From a virus (lineage: Duplodnaviria; Heunggongvirae; Uroviricota; Caudoviricetes), in the IMG/VR virus record IMGVR_UViG_2529292923_000024: a stretch of DNA of 28,522 nt. One strand, 5' to 3'. The position numbers and the translations under genes are program-made. Of this stretch, positions 13,690-19,304 are shown piece after piece. Position 1 is the stretch's first letter, and each line of letters opens with the position of its first letter. The notes beneath the pieces were generated by a model that searched no databases, was not told the origin of the DNA, and was given only the letters and a program-made list of their open reading frames with translations.

Positions 13690-14016
13690 ATGACGACGTT
13701 AACTCAATGCCAGCAGCAGGTGCTGGATATGCTGATTTCTTATCAGAAAGAACGTGGCTTCCCGCCAACCAATCAGGAGGTGGCAACCATGCTGGGATAC
13801 CGTTCAGTGAATGCAGCGGTGGAGCATCTTCGCGCACTGGAGAAAAAAGGCGTCATCACGATAAAGCGTGGCGTGGCCCGGGGCATCACGCTTCATACCG
13901 CGGTGAAGGACGACGACAGCGAGGCGGTCGGGATTATCCGCTCACTGCTTGCCGGTGAGGAAAACGCCAGGCTGCGTGCAACCCACTGGTTACATAAGAG
14001 GGGCCTGAAAGTATGA
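13690..14016 (+). CDS. LexA DNA-binding-domain-only protein (no peptidase domain)
   Basis: 108 aa; strong similarity in pattern to the LexA N-terminal winged-helix domain (QQQVLDMLISYQKERGFPPTNQEVATMLGYRSVNAAVEHLRALEKKGVI); no S24 domain follows; ATGA overlaps with both neighbours. Confidence 0.6.
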   Translation: MTTLTQCQQQVLDMLISYQKERGFPPTNQEVATMLGYRSVNAAVEHLRALEKKGVITIKRGVARGITLHTAVKDDDSEAVGIIRSLLAGEENARLRATHWLHKRGLKV

Positions 14017-14402
14017 AGCTGATCCTGCCTTTCCCGCCCAGCGTGAACACGTACTGGCGACACCCCAACAAAGGGGCGTTTGCAGGTAAGAGCCTGATAA
14101 GCGCGGCGGGGCGAAAATTTCAGAGCGCGGCGTGCGCAGCAATAGTTGAACAGTTACGTCGTCTGCCGAAACCAACGTCGGCACCTGCTTCAGTGGAGAT
14201 CGTGTTGTTTCCTCCGGATAACAGGATCCGCGATCTGGACAACTATAACAAGGCGCTGTTTGACGCCCTGACCCACGCGGGGGTGTGGGAAGACGACAGT
14301 CAGGTGAAAAGAATGCTGGTGGAGTGGGGACCGGTTATCCCGGAAGGGAAGGTCGAGATCACTATCAGTAAGTACGAGAAAACGGCGGGTGCAGCTGCCT
14401 GA
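14013..14402 (+). CDS. rusA: RusA-like Holliday junction resolvase
   Basis: 129 aa; RusA signature (LPFPPSVNTYW ... RDLDNYNKALFDALTHAGVWEDDSQV). Confidence 0.8.
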   Translation: MKLILPFPPSVNTYWRHPNKGAFAGKSLISAAGRKFQSAACAAIVEQLRRLPKPTSAPASVEIVLFPPDNRIRDLDNYNKALFDALTHAGVWEDDSQVKRMLVEWGPVIPEGKVEITISKYEKTAGAAA

Positions 14403-14421: not shown

Positions 14422-15231
14422 ATGAATAATCTGATGGTCATTGATGGTATTGAAGTTCGTCGTGATGCTTATGGGCGTTACAGCCTGAACGATCTGCATC
14501 GCGCAGCAGTAGCATCTGGTGCAAATGCCAGAACCAAGGAGCCAGGAAAGTTTCTTTCCAGCCAACAAACTGTTGAGCTTGTTCATGAATTAACCAACAC
14601 CCAGAATTTGGGTGTTGACCCGGTGAGTGTGATTCATGGGGGAAATGAACGGGGAACGTATGTCTGTAAGGAACTGGTGTATGCCTATGCAATGTGGATC
14701 AGCCCGTCATTCCATCTGAAGGTGATCCGTACTTTCGATATGGTAACCAGCGCGCCGGAAAAGTTATCCGGACAGGCTGCTGACAAGATGCAGGCTGGCG
14801 TGATCCTGCTGGACTTTATGCGCCGGGAGTTAAATCTGTCTAACTCTTCAGTGCTTGGTGCCTGTCAGAAACTCCAGGAGGCTGTTGGCTTACCGAATCT
14901 GGCACCGCGCTATGCCATTGATGCTCCTGCTGACGCGCCTGATGGCTCAAGCCGCCCGACACTGTCACTGAGTGCACTGCTGAAGCAGTATGGTATCCGC
15001 CTGACAGCTAATCAGGCATATCACCAGATGGCGAAGCTGGGGATCGTTGAACAACGTGAACGATACAGCCGTACCGCGATTAACAACATCAAAAAATTCT
15101 GGTCGCTGACGGCGAAAGGCTGCATGTTCGGCAAGAACATCACCAGTCCCGCAAATCCGCGCGAGACGCAGCCGCATTTCTTCGAATCCCGATTCCCTGA
15201 GCTGTTAAAGCTACTCGATACCGTTCATTGA
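14422..15231 (+). CDS. KilA-N domain protein (antirepressor-like)
   Basis: 269 aa; N-terminal KilA-N-type segment (LMVIDGIEVRRDAYGRYSLNDLHRAA); good RBS. Confidence 0.6.
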   Translation: MNNLMVIDGIEVRRDAYGRYSLNDLHRAAVASGANARTKEPGKFLSSQQTVELVHELTNTQNLGVDPVSVIHGGNERGTYVCKELVYAYAMWISPSFHLKVIRTFDMVTSAPEKLSGQAADKMQAGVILLDFMRRELNLSNSSVLGACQKLQEAVGLPNLAPRYAIDAPADAPDGSSRPTLSLSALLKQYGIRLTANQAYHQMAKLGIVEQRERYSRTAINNIKKFWSLTAKGCMFGKNITSPANPRETQPHFFESRFPELLKLLDTVH

Positions 15232-15326
15232 GGTGACCGTGAGAGCACTACTGACCCCTGAAATTGCCCCGCGTATGGGGATCGTATTGTTCAGGCCAGG
15301 TTCAGAGCTGATGCCCCTGTTTATGC

Positions 15327-16876
15327 CTGTCTCTTATACACAAATCCCCACCCGGGGATTTGTGATGTCTGTCAGTCTGCTTTAGGGGGACTCTTTCCAT
15401 CCGGTAGTTTCCTTCCTCCCCGGCAGCGATTTTTTGAACTTTTTCCTCACCCGTTGATCTTCTCTTATATTTCATTTTCTTCGGGTCTGTTATGGTACTT
15501 TCTGATTGTTATTCATGGGCTAACGAGCAGTTTTGACATGCCCGTCTCGGTGATCCGCGTCGTACACGACGCCTTGTGTCACTGGCCTCTTCTCTCGCTC
15601 AGCATGCAGGTCTTTCTATTGTGAAATCATCCCAGTCCACTGCTCAGGTTGAAGGTGCGTACCGCCTGATACGTAACCCGTCTGTGTCCCCGCAAGCCAT
15701 TGCCGAAGCCGGATTTACCGCCACTGTAAGGGCATGTGAGGCTCATCCGCTGCTCCTCGCGCTGGAAGACACCACCACCATTAACTTCAGTCACAGTACG
15801 GCATCTGATGACCTGGGGAATACCACCACTAACCCGAAGACGCGCGGGCTGCTGGCTCACTCTGTCCTGATGTACGCCCCCGACAGCGCCCTGCCAGTCG
15901 GTCTTATCGAACAGCAGCGCTGGAGTCGTGCCACGGACACCTACGGTGTTAAGCACCAGCGAAAAGAACGTCCCTATGAAGAAAAAGAAAGTTACCGCTG
16001 GCAGCAGGCTTCGGAGCGCATGGCCGAACGGCTGGGGGAGATACAGAAACGGGTAATCACTGTCTGTGACCGGGAAGCGGATATCTGGCATTACCTGCAT
16101 TATAAAGTCAGCCACGGGCAGCGCTTCGTGGTGCGTGCAGCACAGAATCGCCGGCTGGAAGAAGCACCCGGCAAGCTCTTCGAACTGCCGGAAGTCCTGG
16201 CAACCGCGGGAAGCCACACGCTGAATGTGATGCAAAAAGGCGGGCGGGCAGCCCGCCAGGCCCGGATGTTCATCAGTTACAGCGAAGTCAGCATAAAAAA
16301 TCCCGACAACAGCGGCCAGGCGCTCCCGCTCACGTATGTCTGTTGCCGGGAGCAGGCAGAGGACGGCGCCTGCTGGCATCTGCTGACGTCAGAAAAAGTG
16401 GCGAGTGCCGCCGATGCGCGACGTATCGTCAGCCATTACGAGCGACGCTGGCTGATAGAGGAATACCACAAGGCGTGGAAAAGTGGTGGTACATGTGTGG
16501 AATCGCTGCGAATGCAGACCCGGGATAACCTCGAGCGCATGGTGGTTATCAAGGCGTTTATCGCGGTGCGGGTGCTGGGCCTGCGGCAGGGCGGTATCAG
16601 TGAAGAAACACAAAATGACAGCTGTGAGAAAATACTGACGCCGACAGAGTGGAAACTGCTGTGGGTTAAGCTGGAAGGAAAACCGCTTCCGTCACAGATG
16701 CCGACACTGAAATGGGCCTGTCTGAAACTGGCGAAACTGGGGCGATGGCATGACAGCAAACGCACCGGTCGCCCCGGTTGGGTAGTCATGTGGGATGGCT
16801 GGTTCAGACTTCAGGATATGGTTGAGGGTTACCTGGTGATGAAGTCTCTTGATCAGGAGATCTGATCAAGAGACAG
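15327..16876 (+). mobile_element. IS4-family (IS50/Tn5-like) insertion sequence, 1550 bp, flanked by 8-bp direct repeat GTTTATGC
   Basis: Left end CTGTCTCTTATACACAAAT (Tn5 outside-end-like), right end AGATCTGATCAAGAGACAG (Tn5 inside-end-like); transposase stop lies within the right end as in IS50; direct repeats at 15319-15326 and 16877-16884. Confidence 0.85.
15492..16865 (+). pseudogene. IS50-like (Tn5 Tnp family) transposase with an in-frame TGA at codon 15
   Basis: ATG 15492, then 14 codons, then TGA 15534-15536, with the frame continuing into the 429-aa ORF (GTG 15576 to 16865); aligns with recalled Tn5 Tnp throughout (GDPRRT, EGAYRLIRNP, DREADI, YERRWLIEEYHKAWK, DSKRTG). Confidence 0.75.
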
Positions 16877-16880
16877 GTTT

Positions 16881-17786
16881 ATGCAGGGGCGTGTCCTGCT
16901 GGAGCCAGAGCCGGAACGTTATTCATCTTTCGCCAGTGGTGCCGTTCCGGCGGCATCACAACCGCTGGCGGATGATCCTGCCGTTCGGACCGTGTTCCGC
17001 AATGAGGCAGTGATCCGTCGTGCTGGTGGCGTGGAATGTCTTGAAAGCTGGTTACTTCGTGAAAAAGGTTGCCAGTGGCCTCATTCCGACTGGCACAGCG
17101 AGAACATGACCACAATGCGACACACGCCGGGCGCAATCCGTCTGTGCTGGCACTGCGATAACCAGCTGCGCGATCAGTTCACGGAACGGCTGGAATCAAT
17201 GGCAACGGATAACTGTACCCGCTGGGTGTTGTCTGTTGTGCGTCGGGATCTCGGTTTTGATGACAGTCACGTTGTGACAATGCCGGAACTGTGCTGGTGG
17301 CTGATTCGTAATGACCTGGCGGATGCCTTACCGGAAAGTGCAGCCCGTAAGGCACTGAGATTACCGAAGCCTGTTGTGCCGTCTGTCACCCGGGAAAGTG
17401 ACCTTGTGCCTTCGGTTCCTGCCACCAGCATCATCCAGGATAAAGCGAAAAAGGTGCTGGCGCTGAAAGTGGATCCGGAGTCGCCGGAGTCTTTTATGTT
17501 ACGCCCAAAACGTCGCCGCTGGGTTAATGAAAAGTACACGCGCTGGGTTAAGACACAGCCGTGTGCATGTTGTGGAAAGCCCGCTGATGATCCCCACCAC
17601 CTGATAGGCCACGGTCAGTGTGGAATGGGTACAAAAGCGCATGACCTTTTTGTGTTGCCTTTGTGCAGAAAGCATCACGACGAGCTGCATGCGGATACCG
17701 TGGCATTTGAAGAGAAGTATGGCTCTCAGCTGGAGCTGATATTTCGTTTTATCGATCGTGCGCTGGCAATTGGCGTACTGGCGTAA
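16881..17786 (+). CDS. DUF968-family protein with C-terminal HNH-like Cys/His motif; 5' end displaced by the IS50-like insertion
   Basis: 301-aa ORF beginning at the ATG inside the right direct-repeat copy; 29 in-frame codons with a GAGGTG RBS and GTG start lie at 15239-15325 left of the IS, so the native gene was about 329 codons. Confidence 0.6.
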   Translation: MQGRVLLEPEPERYSSFASGAVPAASQPLADDPAVRTVFRNEAVIRRAGGVECLESWLLREKGCQWPHSDWHSENMTTMRHTPGAIRLCWHCDNQLRDQFTERLESMATDNCTRWVLSVVRRDLGFDDSHVVTMPELCWWLIRNDLADALPESAARKALRLPKPVVPSVTRESDLVPSVPATSIIQDKAKKVLALKVDPESPESFMLRPKRRRWVNEKYTRWVKTQPCACCGKPADDPHHLIGHGQCGMGTKAHDLFVLPLCRKHHDELHADTVAFEEKYGSQLELIFRFIDRALAIGVLA

Positions 17787-17799
17787 GTGGAGAACGAGC

Positions 17800-18552
17800 A
17801 TGAACCTTGAAGCCTTACCGAAATATTACTCCCCGAAATCTCCAAAACTGAGCGATGACGCACCGGCGACAGGCTCTGGTGGTTTAACAATTACGGATGT
17901 GATGGCTGCGCAGGGGATGGTGCAGTCAAAAGCACCGCTTGGGTTTGCTTTATTCCTGGCAAAAGTTGGTGTTCAGGATCCTCAGTTTGCGATTGAAGGT
18001 CTGCTCAATTACGCGATGGCACTGGATAACCCGACATTGAATAAATTGAGTGAAGAAACCCGGCTACAGATCATTCCTTACCTTGTGAATTTTGCCTTTG
18101 CTGATTATTCCAGGTCTGCGGCAAGTAAGGCTCGCTGTGAGCATTGTGCTGGTACTGGATTTCATAATGTATTGCGCGAGGTGGTGAAACACTCCAGAAG
18201 CGGGGAATCTGTTATTAAGGAAGAGTGGGTGAAGGAACTATGTCAGCATTGTCATGGTAAGGGAGAAGTCAGCACAGCATGCAGAGGGTGCAAGGGTAAA
18301 GGTATTGTCCTGGATGAAAAAAGAACCCGGCTTCATGGCACGCCTGTTTATAAGGTTTGTGGGCGTTGCAATGGAAACCGGTTTAGCCGTTTACCAACCA
18401 CACTGGCGCGGCTTCATGTCCAGAAGCTGGTACCAGACCTGACGGATTATCAGTGGTACAAAGGATATGCAGATGTCATTGATAAACTGGTTACAAAGTG
18501 CTGGCAGGAAGAAGCATATGCAGAGATACAATTGAGAAAGGTGACAAGATAA
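17800..18552 (+). CDS. Q: late-gene antiterminator Q (Qin quuQ / phage 82 type)
   Basis: 250 aa from MNLEALPKYYSPKS; Cys clusters (CEHCAGTG, CQHCHGKG, CRGCKGKG, CGRCNGN); followed by a pR'-like promoter and terminator. Confidence 0.8.
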   Translation: MNLEALPKYYSPKSPKLSDDAPATGSGGLTITDVMAAQGMVQSKAPLGFALFLAKVGVQDPQFAIEGLLNYAMALDNPTLNKLSEETRLQIIPYLVNFAFADYSRSAASKARCEHCAGTGFHNVLREVVKHSRSGESVIKEEWVKELCQHCHGKGEVSTACRGCKGKGIVLDEKRTRLHGTPVYKVCGRCNGNRFSRLPTTLARLHVQKLVPDLTDYQWYKGYADVIDKLVTKCWQEEAYAEIQLRKVTR

Positions 18553-19054: not shown

Positions 19055-19130
19055 GGCCCTTTAGCTCAGTGGTGAGAGCGAGCGACTCATAATCGCCAGG
19101 TCGCTGGTTCAAATCCAGCAAGGGCCACCA
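19055..19130 (+). tRNA. ileZ: tRNA-Ile2 type (anticodon CAU, ileX/ileZ-like)
   Basis: Cloverleaf assembled by hand: acceptor GGCCCTT/AAGGGCC, anticodon loop CTCATAA, TPsiC GGTTCAAAT, 3' CCA; near-identical to E. coli ileX as recalled. Confidence 0.85.
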
Positions 19131-19137
19131 TCACATA

Positions 19138-19214
19138 CCGCCATTAGCTCATCGGGATAGAGCGTCAGCCTTCGAAGCTGGCTGTGCGGGGTTCAAGTCC
19201 CCGATGGCGGTCCA
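19138..19214 (+). tRNA. argN: tRNA-Arg (anticodon UCG)
   Basis: Acceptor CCGCCAT/ATGGCGG, anticodon loop CTTCGAA, TPsiC GGTTCAAGT, 3' CCA. Confidence 0.8.
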
Positions 19215-19227
19215 TTATCAGCATCAT

Positions 19228-19304
19228 GCGTTGTTAGCTCAGTCGGACAGAGCAATTGCCTTCTAAGCAATCGGTCACTGGTTCGAATCCAGTACAACGC
19301 GCCA
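19228..19304 (+). tRNA. argO: tRNA-Arg (anticodon UCU)
   Basis: Acceptor GCGTTGT/ACAACGC, anticodon stem ATTGC/GCAAT with loop CTTCTAA, TPsiC GGTTCGAAT, 3' CCA. Confidence 0.85.

What the first reader, a model, noticed from the sequence alone, without database searches (positions are those of the whole stretch)
15239..16890. IS50-like element with 8-bp target duplication inserted into the 5' end of the DUF968 gene
Tn5-like outside-end and inside-end sequences delimit a 1550-bp element (15327-16876) flanked by the direct repeat GTTTATGC. Joining the flanks restores one continuous frame: a GTG at 15239 with a GAGGTG RBS, 29 codons (VRALLTPEIAPRMGIVLFRPGSELMPLFM), then QGRVLLEPE.... The insertion separated the native start and first 28 codons from the rest of the gene. 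The duplicated ATGC places an ATG immediately after the IS, so a truncated product could still be made, perhaps from an outward-reading promoter in the IS end.
Basis: seen in the sequence. Interest (0 to 1): 0.55.

Follow-up and report, generated by a model that had tools for sequence, protein, structure and literature searches.

The report
ISEc13 insertion splitting a prophage gene
A known E. coli jumping gene (ISEc13, a close relative of Tn5/IS50) has landed inside the start of a prophage DUF968/HNH-nuclease gene, duplicating 8 bases and cutting off its conserved first 28 codons; this is a routine gene-disrupting insertion.

Summary
Bases 15327-16876 are one complete 1550-bp copy of ISEc13, a known IS4-family, IS50-subgroup element. 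It differs at 1 base from the copies in EPEC E2348/69 and is flanked by the 8-bp duplication GTTTATGC. Removing the element and one repeat copy recreates the uninterrupted KilA-N/DUF968 junction. That junction is found in 2261 of 5426 complete E. coli genomes, where the 329-codon DUF968 gene is annotated from the GTG equivalent to 15239. The N-terminal 28 residues are conserved down to phage P1 PdcB, so the gene is truly split.

- This IS copy has a G-to-T change at 15534 that makes codon 15 of its transposase a TGA stop. It is probably not autonomous.
- The target is a palindrome, CCCCT-N8-AGGGG, the only CCCC-N10-GGGG site in the window. Other ISEc13 copies sit in similar sites.
- A metagenome contig carries an independent ISEc13 insertion at the same 8 bp in the opposite orientation.

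The idea of an outward promoter driving a truncated product finds no support: no promoter-like site, no Shine-Dalgarno sequence, and a 13-bp hairpin just upstream of the ATG. Overall this is ordinary and already known.

The parts
15229..15234 (+). GAGGTG ribosome-binding site of the DUF968 gene; overlaps the TGA stop of the upstream KilA-N gene (14422-15231)
   Evidence: Sequence. NCBI annotation starts the gene 5 nt downstream in the intact homologues.
15239..15326 (+). 5' fragment of the DUF968/YdfU/PdcB-family gene: GTG start, codons 1-29 plus 1 nt. It now reads on into the IS for 19 more codons to a TAG at 15383-15385, giving a 48-aa stub.
   Evidence: The N-terminal motif is conserved in distant homologues.
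15314..15318 (.). CCCCT, left arm of the palindromic target site
15319..15326 (.). Left copy of the 8-bp target-site duplication GTTTATGC
15327..16876 (+). Complete ISEc13 copy (1550 bp; IS4 family, IS50 subgroup), transposase on the + strand
   Evidence: 879 records hold a near full-length copy, annotated as ISEc13 family transposase; 1 mismatch to the E2348/69 copy.
15327..15345 (+). Left terminal repeat, Tn5 outside-end-like (17 of 19 bases; also 17 of 19 to the mosaic end, with the first 16 nt identical)
15339..15364 (.). Perfect 11-bp hairpin (CACAAATCCCC / GGGGATTTGTG, 4-nt loop) overlapping the left end
   Evidence: inverted repeat I13.
15492..16865 (+). Transposase reading frame (457 codons in intact copies). 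Here it is interrupted at codon 15.
   Evidence: for the frame. Tn5 transposase, E = 6e-84. NF033590, 514 bits.
15534..15536 (+). TGA stop replacing GGA (Gly15); G to T at 15534 (IS position 208)
   Evidence: Position 208 is G in 36 of the 37 other copies where it could be aligned, including all 11 full-length genome copies. The one exception (L020, T) is a diverged, internally deleted derivative.
16844..16874 (.). Perfect 13-bp hairpin (GTCTCTTGATCAG / CTGATCAAGAGAC, 5-nt loop) formed by the right end and an internal inverted copy. It contains the transposase stop codon (16863-16865).
   Evidence: inverted repeat I5; predicted fold, z = -5.25.
16858..16876 (-). Right terminal repeat, identical (19 of 19) to the IS50 inside end, including its two GATC sites
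16877..16884 (.). Right copy of the 8-bp target-site duplication GTTTATGC
16885..16889 (.). AGGGG, right arm of the palindromic target site
16881..17786 (+). 3' fragment of the DUF968 gene: native codons 29-329 plus stop. It is open from the native Met29 ATG (301 aa) and holds the whole Pfam DUF968 / HNH-like domain.
   Evidence: PF06147, 268.6 bits..
17800..18552 (+). Antiterminator Q gene immediately downstream (context; possibly subject to polarity from the insertion)
   Evidence: PF03589. Start placed by comparison with ydfT in L003.

Best explanation
One copy of the known insertion sequence ISEc13 transposed into a lambdoid prophage of an E. coli-like genome. ISEc13 belongs to the IS4 family, IS50/Tn5 subgroup, whose members move by DDE-transposase cut-and-paste.

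**The insertion.** The element entered the palindromic site CCCCT-GTTTATGC-AGGGG within codons 27-30 of the prophage's DUF968 (YdfU/PdcB-family, HNH-like) gene. That gene lies between the KilA-N gene and the antiterminator Q gene. Staggered cuts 8 bp apart and repair produced the GTTTATGC duplication.

**Effect on the gene.** The gene is now split in two. The native start plus 29 codons runs into the IS and stops after 19 foreign codons. A 301-codon remainder lacks its own ribosome-binding site. The most likely result is a null or strongly reduced DUF968 function, so the gene is in effect a pseudogene.

**State of the IS copy.** The transposase gene carries a TGA at codon 15. This copy cannot make full-length transposase and is probably immobile unless supplied in trans.

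**Shown versus inferred.** Shown: the identity of the element, its exact boundaries, the duplication, the empty site, the conserved N-terminus, the nonsense codon and the target motif. Inferred: loss of DUF968 function, non-autonomy of the copy, and any polarity on Q.
For: - **Identity.** The element is 1549/1550 identical to E2348/69 copies annotated as 'IS4-like element ISEc13 family transposase'. The repaired transposase hits NF033590 at 514 bits against a cutoff of 160. It hits Tn5 transposase structures at E = 6e-84, with the DDE residues and the Y-2-R-3-E-6-K signature aligned.
- **Subgroup traits.** Size, 5'-CT ends, end consensus and 8-9 bp duplication fit the IS50 subgroup table in PMC2266710.
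- **Empty site.** The excised sequence equals the uninterrupted junction in L002 and L003, with 0 mismatches over the first 269 nt of the gene. It aligns uninterrupted in 2261 of 5426 genomes.
- **Gene start.** NCBI annotates a 329-aa protein from the same GTG. tblastn hits down to 26% identity start at residue 1 to 4. The alignment shows a conserved MRALLTP..P..G.VL.KPG motif with invariant G14. PHROG 96 is matched over 1-329 against profile positions 1-334 of 334.
- **Duplication length.** It is 8 bp at 10 of 21 distinct sites with both flanks, and 7 to 10 bp at seven others.
- **Target motif.** C occupies positions -13 to -10 in 34 to 39 of 43 unique flanks. The window site is the only CCCC-N10-GGGG in 26,964 bp, against 0.34 expected. 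Contig L056 holds an independent opposite-orientation hit at the same 8 bp.
- **Nonsense codon.**
Against: - Nothing contradicts the insertion itself.
- Loss of function is not demonstrated. The 301-codon remainder keeps the whole Pfam DUF968/HNH domain and starts at a native ATG 15 nt after the transposase stop. Read-through plus re-initiation could therefore give some truncated protein.
- The single-base nonsense change could be a sequencing or assembly error; no reads are available.
- No other genome in the collections carries this exact junction. The event rests on this one assembly.
Confidence: 0.93

Rival explanations
1. The insertion re-wires rather than kills the gene. A promoter in or across the right IS end, or read-through from the transposase gene with re-initiation at ATG 16881, expresses a functional N-terminally truncated DUF968 protein and perhaps Q.
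For: - ATG 16881 is in frame and the whole Pfam DUF968 domain is retained.
- The transposase stop lies 15 nt upstream of the ATG.
- No + strand terminator-like site is predicted inside the IS.
- From general knowledge, IS50L carries a promoter that reads out through its inside end in Tn5.
Against: - No sigma-70-like promoter site was found on either strand of 15000-17900, against 1.6 expected by chance. The scan is insensitive, since it also misses the IS's own promoter.
- There is no Shine-Dalgarno match upstream of the ATG.
- The would-be Shine-Dalgarno region lies in the 3' arm of a perfect 13-bp hairpin.
- Coupling to transposase translation is weakened by the TGA at codon 15.
- The lost 28 residues are conserved across the family, including an invariant Gly14.
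Confidence: 0.1
2. The IS at this position is an assembly artefact: a repeat copy misplaced by the assembler, with the DUF968 gene intact in the real genome.
For: - ISEc13 is multi-copy in many strains, up to 32 places per genome.
- No other genome or species representative has this junction.
- Short-read assemblies often break at this IS. Many metagenome contigs end 25 to 55 nt inside it.
Against: - A clean 8-bp duplication lies exactly at the element's true ends.
- The site is a perfect match to the element's target motif and is the only such site in the window.
- The copy carries a private SNP.
- The same site was independently hit in another sample.
- A misassembly would not create a target-site duplication.
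Confidence: 0.03
3. The TGA at transposase codon 15 is a base-calling error, or is read through, so this copy is a normal, autonomous ISEc13.
For: - It is a single G-to-T difference from an otherwise identical consensus.
- Position 208 is G in 36 of the 37 other copies where it could be aligned.
Against: - Nothing in the sequence marks it as an error.
- One diverged, internally deleted derivative (L020) also has T at this position.
- Inactivated IS copies are common.
Confidence: 0.15

Closest known systems
ISEc13 (IS4 family, IS50 subgroup), as found about 30 times in EPEC O127:H6 E2348/69 and on its plasmid pMAR2
   Same: - 1550 bp, with 1549 of 1550 bases identical.
- Same terminal repeats and the same 457-codon transposase frame.
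- Same commonest 8-bp duplication.
- Same CCCC...GGGG target context.
   Different: - A new insertion site, not present in 5426 complete E. coli genomes or in the GTDB representative genomes scanned.
- A private G208T nonsense change in the transposase.
IS50 / Tn5
   Same: - Transposase homologous over its full length (E = 6e-84), with the DDE and YREK residues aligned.
- Right end identical to the IS50 inside end (19 of 19), including both GATC sites.
- Left end matches the outside end at 17 of 19.
- The transposase stop codon lies inside the right end.
   Different: - From knowledge of Tn5, it makes 9-bp duplications with only a weak target consensus. ISEc13 makes mostly 8 bp and shows a strong palindromic CCCCT-N(7-10)-AGGGG context.
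- There is no Met at the position of the Tn5 inhibitor-protein start (alignment).
IS186 and IS231A, IS4-family elements with symmetric G/C-run targets (from memory: IS186 (G)>=4 N3-6 (C)>=4 with variable duplication length; IS231A GGG-N5-CCC)
   Same: - Symmetric G/C-run target.
- For IS186, a duplication length that varies with the site.
   Different: - Opposite polarity, with the C-run 5' and the G-run 3'.
- The runs lie just outside the duplicated bases.
- A different subgroup.
- The comparison rests on memory and was not tested here.
YdfU (Rac/Qin prophages) / phage P1 PdcB / PHROG 96 'HNH endonuclease' (Pfam DUF968)
   Same: - The rebuilt 329-aa protein matches PHROG 96 end to end and Pfam DUF968.
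- It aligns to P1 PdcB over residues 1-329 at 26.5% identity.
- It sits just upstream of the late-gene activator, as pdcB does upstream of lpa.
   Different: Here the gene is split by the IS. The biochemical function of the family is unknown in any case.

Membership tests
IS4 family, IS50 subgroup (ISEc13) | DDE transposase carrying the Y-(2)-R-(3)-E-(6)-K signature | tested here: met
   alignment to Tn5 transposase shows LEDTT, VCDREADI and YERRWLIEEYHKAWK aligned with the Tn5 catalytic D, D, E and YREK residues. NF033590 at 514 bits (cutoff 160). PF01609 and PF14706 are above cutoff; PF02281 is just below (24.2 against 26.7). The definition is taken from PMC2266710.
IS4 family, IS50 subgroup (ISEc13) | Single uninterrupted transposase reading frame (no frameshift) | tested here: not met
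   The frame is 457 codons in reference copies. In this copy it is interrupted by TGA at codon 15. This is a defect of the copy, not of the element type.
IS4 family, IS50 subgroup (ISEc13) | Terminal inverted repeats with 5'-CT and the subgroup end consensus CW------Y---CA-A--W- | tested here: met
   Both ends (CTGTCTCTTATACACAAATC and CTGTCTCTTGATCAGATCTC) fit every specified position.
IS4 family, IS50 subgroup (ISEc13) | Size 1350-1550 bp and target duplication of 8-9 bp | tested here: met
   The element is 1550 bp with an 8-bp duplication. The ranges are from Table 1 of PMC2266710.
IS4 family, IS50 subgroup (ISEc13) | Near-identity to the named element (same IS rather than a relative) | tested here: met
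   99.9% identity over 1550 bp to copies that RefSeq names ISEc13. The ISfinder reference entry itself was not available to compare.
IS4 family, IS50 subgroup (ISEc13) | Demonstrated transposition activity | not testable with these tools
   The only evidence is indirect: many distinct insertion sites with duplications, and an empty site for this one.
DUF968 / YdfU / PdcB (PHROG 96) | Pfam DUF968 domain above the gathering score | tested here: met
   PF06147 at 268.6 bits (cutoff 27.8), on the 301-aa 3' fragment.
DUF968 / YdfU / PdcB (PHROG 96) | Full-length architecture including the conserved N-terminal segment | tested here: met
   This holds only after in silico excision; residues 1-329 against profile positions 1-334 of 334. 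N-terminal motif conserved, G14 invariant. In the window as it stands, the two parts are 1558 bp apart.
DUF968 / YdfU / PdcB (PHROG 96) | HNH-type nuclease activity | not testable with these tools
   The only support is conserved Cys and His columns (C256, H267, H272, H282) and a sub-threshold HNHc_6 hit (26.1 against 26.6).

The most novel reading that the evidence does not exclude
ISEc13 may be a naturally site-selective close relative of Tn5. Its transposase appears to pick short palindromes of the form CCCCT-N(7-10)-AGGGG, which could form a 5-bp stem with a 7-10-nt loop. It joins its ends exactly at the stem-loop boundaries, so the duplication length follows the spacer length (7, 8, 9 or 10 bp). 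Under this reading, codons 25-31 of this widespread prophage DUF968 gene are a recurrent hot spot, hit at least twice independently in opposite orientations. I found no description of this preference in the searchable literature; the 8 papers that mention ISEc13 appear from titles and abstracts to be genome or resistance surveys and were not read. It may still be recorded in ISfinder or in papers not held here.
Probability: 0.35. Interest if true: 0.45.

Novelty: already known. Interest (0 to 1): 0.15.

Why it matters
For the window itself, the practical consequence is annotation. The region 15239-17786 should be called one DUF968 pseudogene interrupted by ISEc13, not a 50-aa ORF plus a 301-aa 'DUF968 protein'. 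The IS transposase should be flagged as carrying an internal stop.

Biologically it is one more example of IS-mediated decay of a prophage early-right ('nin') region just upstream of the late-gene antiterminator Q. That could affect inducibility of the prophage.

The side observation has wider interest. Tn5 transposase is the workhorse of tagmentation and transposon mutagenesis and is valued for near-random insertion. A 1-kb-scale relative with nearly identical ends but a strong palindromic target preference would be useful for asking how target choice is encoded in this enzyme family.

Tried and rejected
- **Same insertion elsewhere.** I looked for the identical insertion in other genomes. 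Junction-spanning queries of 400 nt against 5426 complete E. coli genomes gave no place covering at least 80% of the query, in either orientation. An exact 38-nt junction scan of the GTDB species representatives gave 0 hits.
- **Wasted scan.** A scan of the same collection with the IS left end also gave 0 hits.
- **Second copy in the window.** I looked for a second ISEc13 end, which would indicate a composite transposon or a rearrangement. There is none.
- **Nine-bp duplication.** I considered a Tn5-like 9-bp duplication with one mismatch (TGTTTATGC against GGTTTATGC). I rejected it because the G belongs to the conserved IS terminus and 8 bp is the commonest length for this element.
- **IS-mediated inversion.** I considered that L056 might reflect an inversion of the same insertion. 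I rejected it because recombination between IS copies cannot move the gene-body flank from the inside-end side to the outside-end side. The L056 flank also differs at 10 of 915 bases and sits in a different prophage.
- **Shared nonsense base.** I checked whether T at IS position 208 is shared by other copies. Only one diverged, deleted derivative has it.
- **Literature.** Eight papers mention ISEc13; from titles and abstracts they are genome or resistance surveys, and none was read. Reznikoff et al. 2004 on IS50 relatives is not held.
- **Promoter scan.** It found nothing. Because it also misses the IS's own transposase promoter, this negative is weak.
Full report

Yes. The sequence at 15327 begins CTGTCTCTTATACACAAATCC, and the sequence ending at 16876 is the reverse complement of CTGTCTCTTGATCAGATCTCC. 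Each end occurs once in the 28.5-kb window, with 0 matches in 100 shuffles even when 3 mismatches are allowed.

The left end matches the Tn5 outside end at 17 of 19 positions and the engineered mosaic end at 17 of 19. The right end is identical to the IS50 inside end at 19 of 19. I checked the outside-end and mosaic-end reference sequences in the oligonucleotide table of PMC3347997. The inside-end sequence is from memory, and I only confirmed that the string occurs in Tn5-related papers.

GTTTATGC lies directly outside both ends, at 15319-15326 and 16877-16884. The chance of an 8-bp match at two fixed positions is about 1.5e-5.

**2. What is the element?**

A megablast of the 1550 bp against 5426 complete E. 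coli genomes finds near full-length copies in 874 genomes. These are annotated 'IS4-like element ISEc13 family transposase', with up to 32 places per genome. About 30 copies are in EPEC O127:H6 E2348/69, plus copies on its plasmid pMAR2. The window copy differs from the E2348/69 copy at one base out of 1550.

The repaired transposase scores as follows:
- 514 bits on NCBIfam NF033590, IS4 family, against a cutoff of 160.
- Pfam hits to Tnp_DNA_bind, DDE_Tnp_1 and, just below threshold, Dimer_Tnp_Tn5.
- E = 6e-84 over residues 6-453 against the solved Tn5 transposase structures, with the catalytic D, D and E residues and the Y-2-R-3-E-6-K signature aligned.

Size (1550 bp), 5'-CT termini, the end consensus CW------Y---CA-A--W- and an 8-9-bp duplication are the traits listed for the IS50 subgroup in 'IS4 family goes genomic' (PMC2266710). 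This is therefore a known element, and only its location is new.

**3. Was the DUF968 gene really split?**

Removing 15327-16884 (the IS plus one repeat copy) gives a 990-nt frame from the GTG at 15239, coding for 329 aa.

- In E. coli O177:H21 (CP016546) and strain 1517k (CP054388), the left flank is 100% identical.
- In both, NCBI annotates a 329-aa DUF968 protein starting at exactly the equivalent GTG.
- The sequence across the excision joint is identical to the in silico product. The first mismatch appears only at nucleotide 270 of the gene.
- A 1500-nt excised query aligns as one uninterrupted piece in 2261 of 5426 genomes.

It fails to refute. tblastn against 50,697 phage genomes finds homologues covering residues 1-329 at 67% (Klebsiella phages), 50% (Pantoea), 44% (Hafnia) and 26% (phage P1 PdcB), and residues 4-328 at 34% in Vibrio phages. 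The alignment shows a conserved N-terminal motif, MRALLTP..P..G.VL.KPG, with an invariant Gly14. The rebuilt protein matches PHROG 96 ('HNH endonuclease') over positions 1-329 against 1-334 of 334.

The IS therefore separates a conserved N-terminal segment from the rest of the protein. The 5' stub now reads 29 native codons plus 19 IS-encoded codons to a TAG at 15383-15385. The 3' part is open from the native Met29 codon, which lies inside the duplicated 8 bp.

**4.

(a) *A nonsense codon in the transposase.* The single difference from the reference is G to T at 15534 (IS position 208). It turns Gly15 (GGA) of the transposase into TGA. Position 208 is G in 36 of the 37 other copies where it could be aligned. 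One diverged, deleted derivative (L020) has T. This copy cannot encode the full 457-aa enzyme. It is either a dead or non-autonomous copy or contains a base-calling error.

(b) *A palindromic target.* In 43 unique flanks of ISEc13 ends, taken from complete genomes and 53 metagenome contigs, positions -13 to -10 from the IS end are C in 39, 37, 35 and 34 cases. Among 21 distinct sites with both flanks, the duplication is 8 bp in ten, 9 bp in four, 10 bp in two and 7 bp in one. Two sites have none, and two diverged, deleted derivatives have only 1 bp. In most of the sites with a duplication, the arms CCCCT and AGGGG or close variants directly abut it, whatever its length.

The window site is CCCCT-GTTTATGC-AGGGG. 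It is the only CCCC-N10-GGGG in the 26,964-bp excised window, against a mean of 0.34 in shuffles.

(c) *An independent hit at the same site.* Metagenome contig L056 carries an ISEc13 left end at exactly the same 8 bp of a 98.9%-identical DUF968 gene. That gene sits in a different prophage background, and the element is in the opposite orientation. This cannot be derived from the window arrangement by IS-IS recombination, so it is an independent hit on the same site.

Together these points make the insertion a textbook real transposition event and argue against an assembly artefact.

**5. Can the truncated gene still be expressed?**

- The consensus scan finds no sigma-70-like site on either strand of 15000-17900, against 1.6 expected by chance. 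The scan is insensitive, because it also fails to find the IS's own promoter.
- There is no Shine-Dalgarno match upstream of ATG 16881.
- The 13 nt from -7 to -19 form the 3' arm of a perfect 13-bp hairpin at 16844-16874. That hairpin dominates the predicted RNA fold (-41.4 kcal/mol for 91 nt, z = -5.25).
- On the other side, no + strand intrinsic terminator is predicted inside the IS, and the transposase stop is only 15 nt upstream of the ATG. Read-through transcripts with termination and re-initiation are conceivable, though the TGA at codon 15 makes translational coupling less likely in this copy.

I put roughly 10% on a functional truncated product. Polarity on the Q gene (17800-18552) is possible but untested.

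**6. Context**

The window is a lambdoid prophage:
- RusA at 14013-14402 and KilA-N at 14422-15231.
- The split DUF968 gene, then antiterminator Q.
- tRNA-Met, tRNA-Arg and tRNA-Arg at 19055-19304, followed by ORFs I take to be lysis genes by position; I did not test them.

The best flanking matches are all E. coli. No complete genome or GTDB representative carries this junction. The insertion is therefore private to the source strain as far as these collections show.

**7. Verdict**

This is a known IS (ISEc13) in a new site, disrupting a prophage gene of unknown function. It is ordinary and already known in kind, so I give it low interest (0.15).

The one lead worth passing on is the strong CCCCT-N(7-10)-AGGGG target context of this Tn5 relative, with duplication length tracking arm spacing. 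I could not find it described in the searchable literature.

Noticed in passing
window 15534 (codon 15 of the transposase, 15534-15536): A single G-to-T change makes the ISEc13 transposase start MVLSDCYSWANEQF* instead of ...QFGHARLGDPRR. Position 208 is G in 36 of the 37 other copies where it could be aligned. The next in-frame start (GTG 15576) would give a protein lacking the first 28 residues, part of the N-terminal DNA-binding region.
   Followed up: yes
window 15314-15326 and 16877-16889; loci L001-L013, L014-L066, L073-L079: ISEc13 insertion sites share a palindromic context, CCCCT-[duplication]-AGGGG. C occupies positions -13 to -10 in 34 to 39 of 43 unique flanks. The duplication is 8 bp in 10 sites, 9 in 4, 10 in 2 and 7 in 1, and in most of them the arms or close variants abut it. 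The target looks like a 5-bp stem with a 7-10-nt loop, where the loop is what gets duplicated.
   Followed up: partly
L056 4860-4963 (metagenome contig ERZ772818 NODE-8692): An independent ISEc13 insertion at exactly the same 8-bp target in a 98.9%-identical DUF968 gene of a different prophage, in the opposite orientation. The contig ends 54 nt into the IS.
   Followed up: yes
L008 vs L073 (agp-yccJ intergenic region); L004 vs L010: The same chromosomal site carries ISEc13 with an 8-bp duplication in one strain and a 9-bp duplication (one extra base at the left junction) in another. This is either repeated independent hits on a hot spot with different stagger or a 1-bp change after insertion.
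   Followed up: no
window 15339-15364 and 16844-16874: Both IS ends carry perfect hairpin-forming palindromes that overlap the terminal repeats: 11-bp arms with a 4-nt loop on the left, and 13-bp arms with a 5-nt loop on the right. The right one is the inside end paired with an internal inverted copy, and it contains the transposase stop codon.
   Followed up: partly
window 15327-15342: The first 16 nt of the ISEc13 left end (CTGTCTCTTATACACA) are identical to the Tn5 mosaic end used in Nextera libraries. Adapter trimmers could clip genuine reads at ISEc13 junctions. At least ten of the 53 metagenome contigs found end 5 to 55 nt into the IS.
   Followed up: no
L018, L020, L053, L054, L057, L063 (about 955 bp); L041, L047; L024, L031: Several metagenome contigs carry diverged (about 94-97% identical), internally deleted ISEc13 derivatives, for example IS positions 1-531 joined to 1121-1550. 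These are non-autonomous relics. Other loci (L014, L025, L046, L050, L052, L055, L058-L060) keep only the first 50 bp, which directly abut sequence beginning TGAACCGCCCCG. From memory, that resembles an IS3-family end.
   Followed up: partly
window 19055-19304: tRNA-Met(CAT), tRNA-Arg(TCG) and tRNA-Arg(TCT) are clustered about 500 bp downstream of the Q gene. This is the layout seen in Stx-converting phages, but no stx-like ORF follows.
   Followed up: no
L072 (phage P1, AF234172 88859-90443): P1 pdcB, the distant homologue of this DUF968 gene, lies immediately upstream of lpa, the late-promoter activator. Here DUF968 lies immediately upstream of antiterminator Q. The position just before the late-gene switch is conserved across very different phages.
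   Followed up: no
L068 (Escherichia phage HannyBb, PP925841 35280-36329): The deposited annotation starts the homologue 24 codons downstream of the conserved N-terminus that aligns with the rest of the family. This is probably a mis-called start.
   Followed up: no
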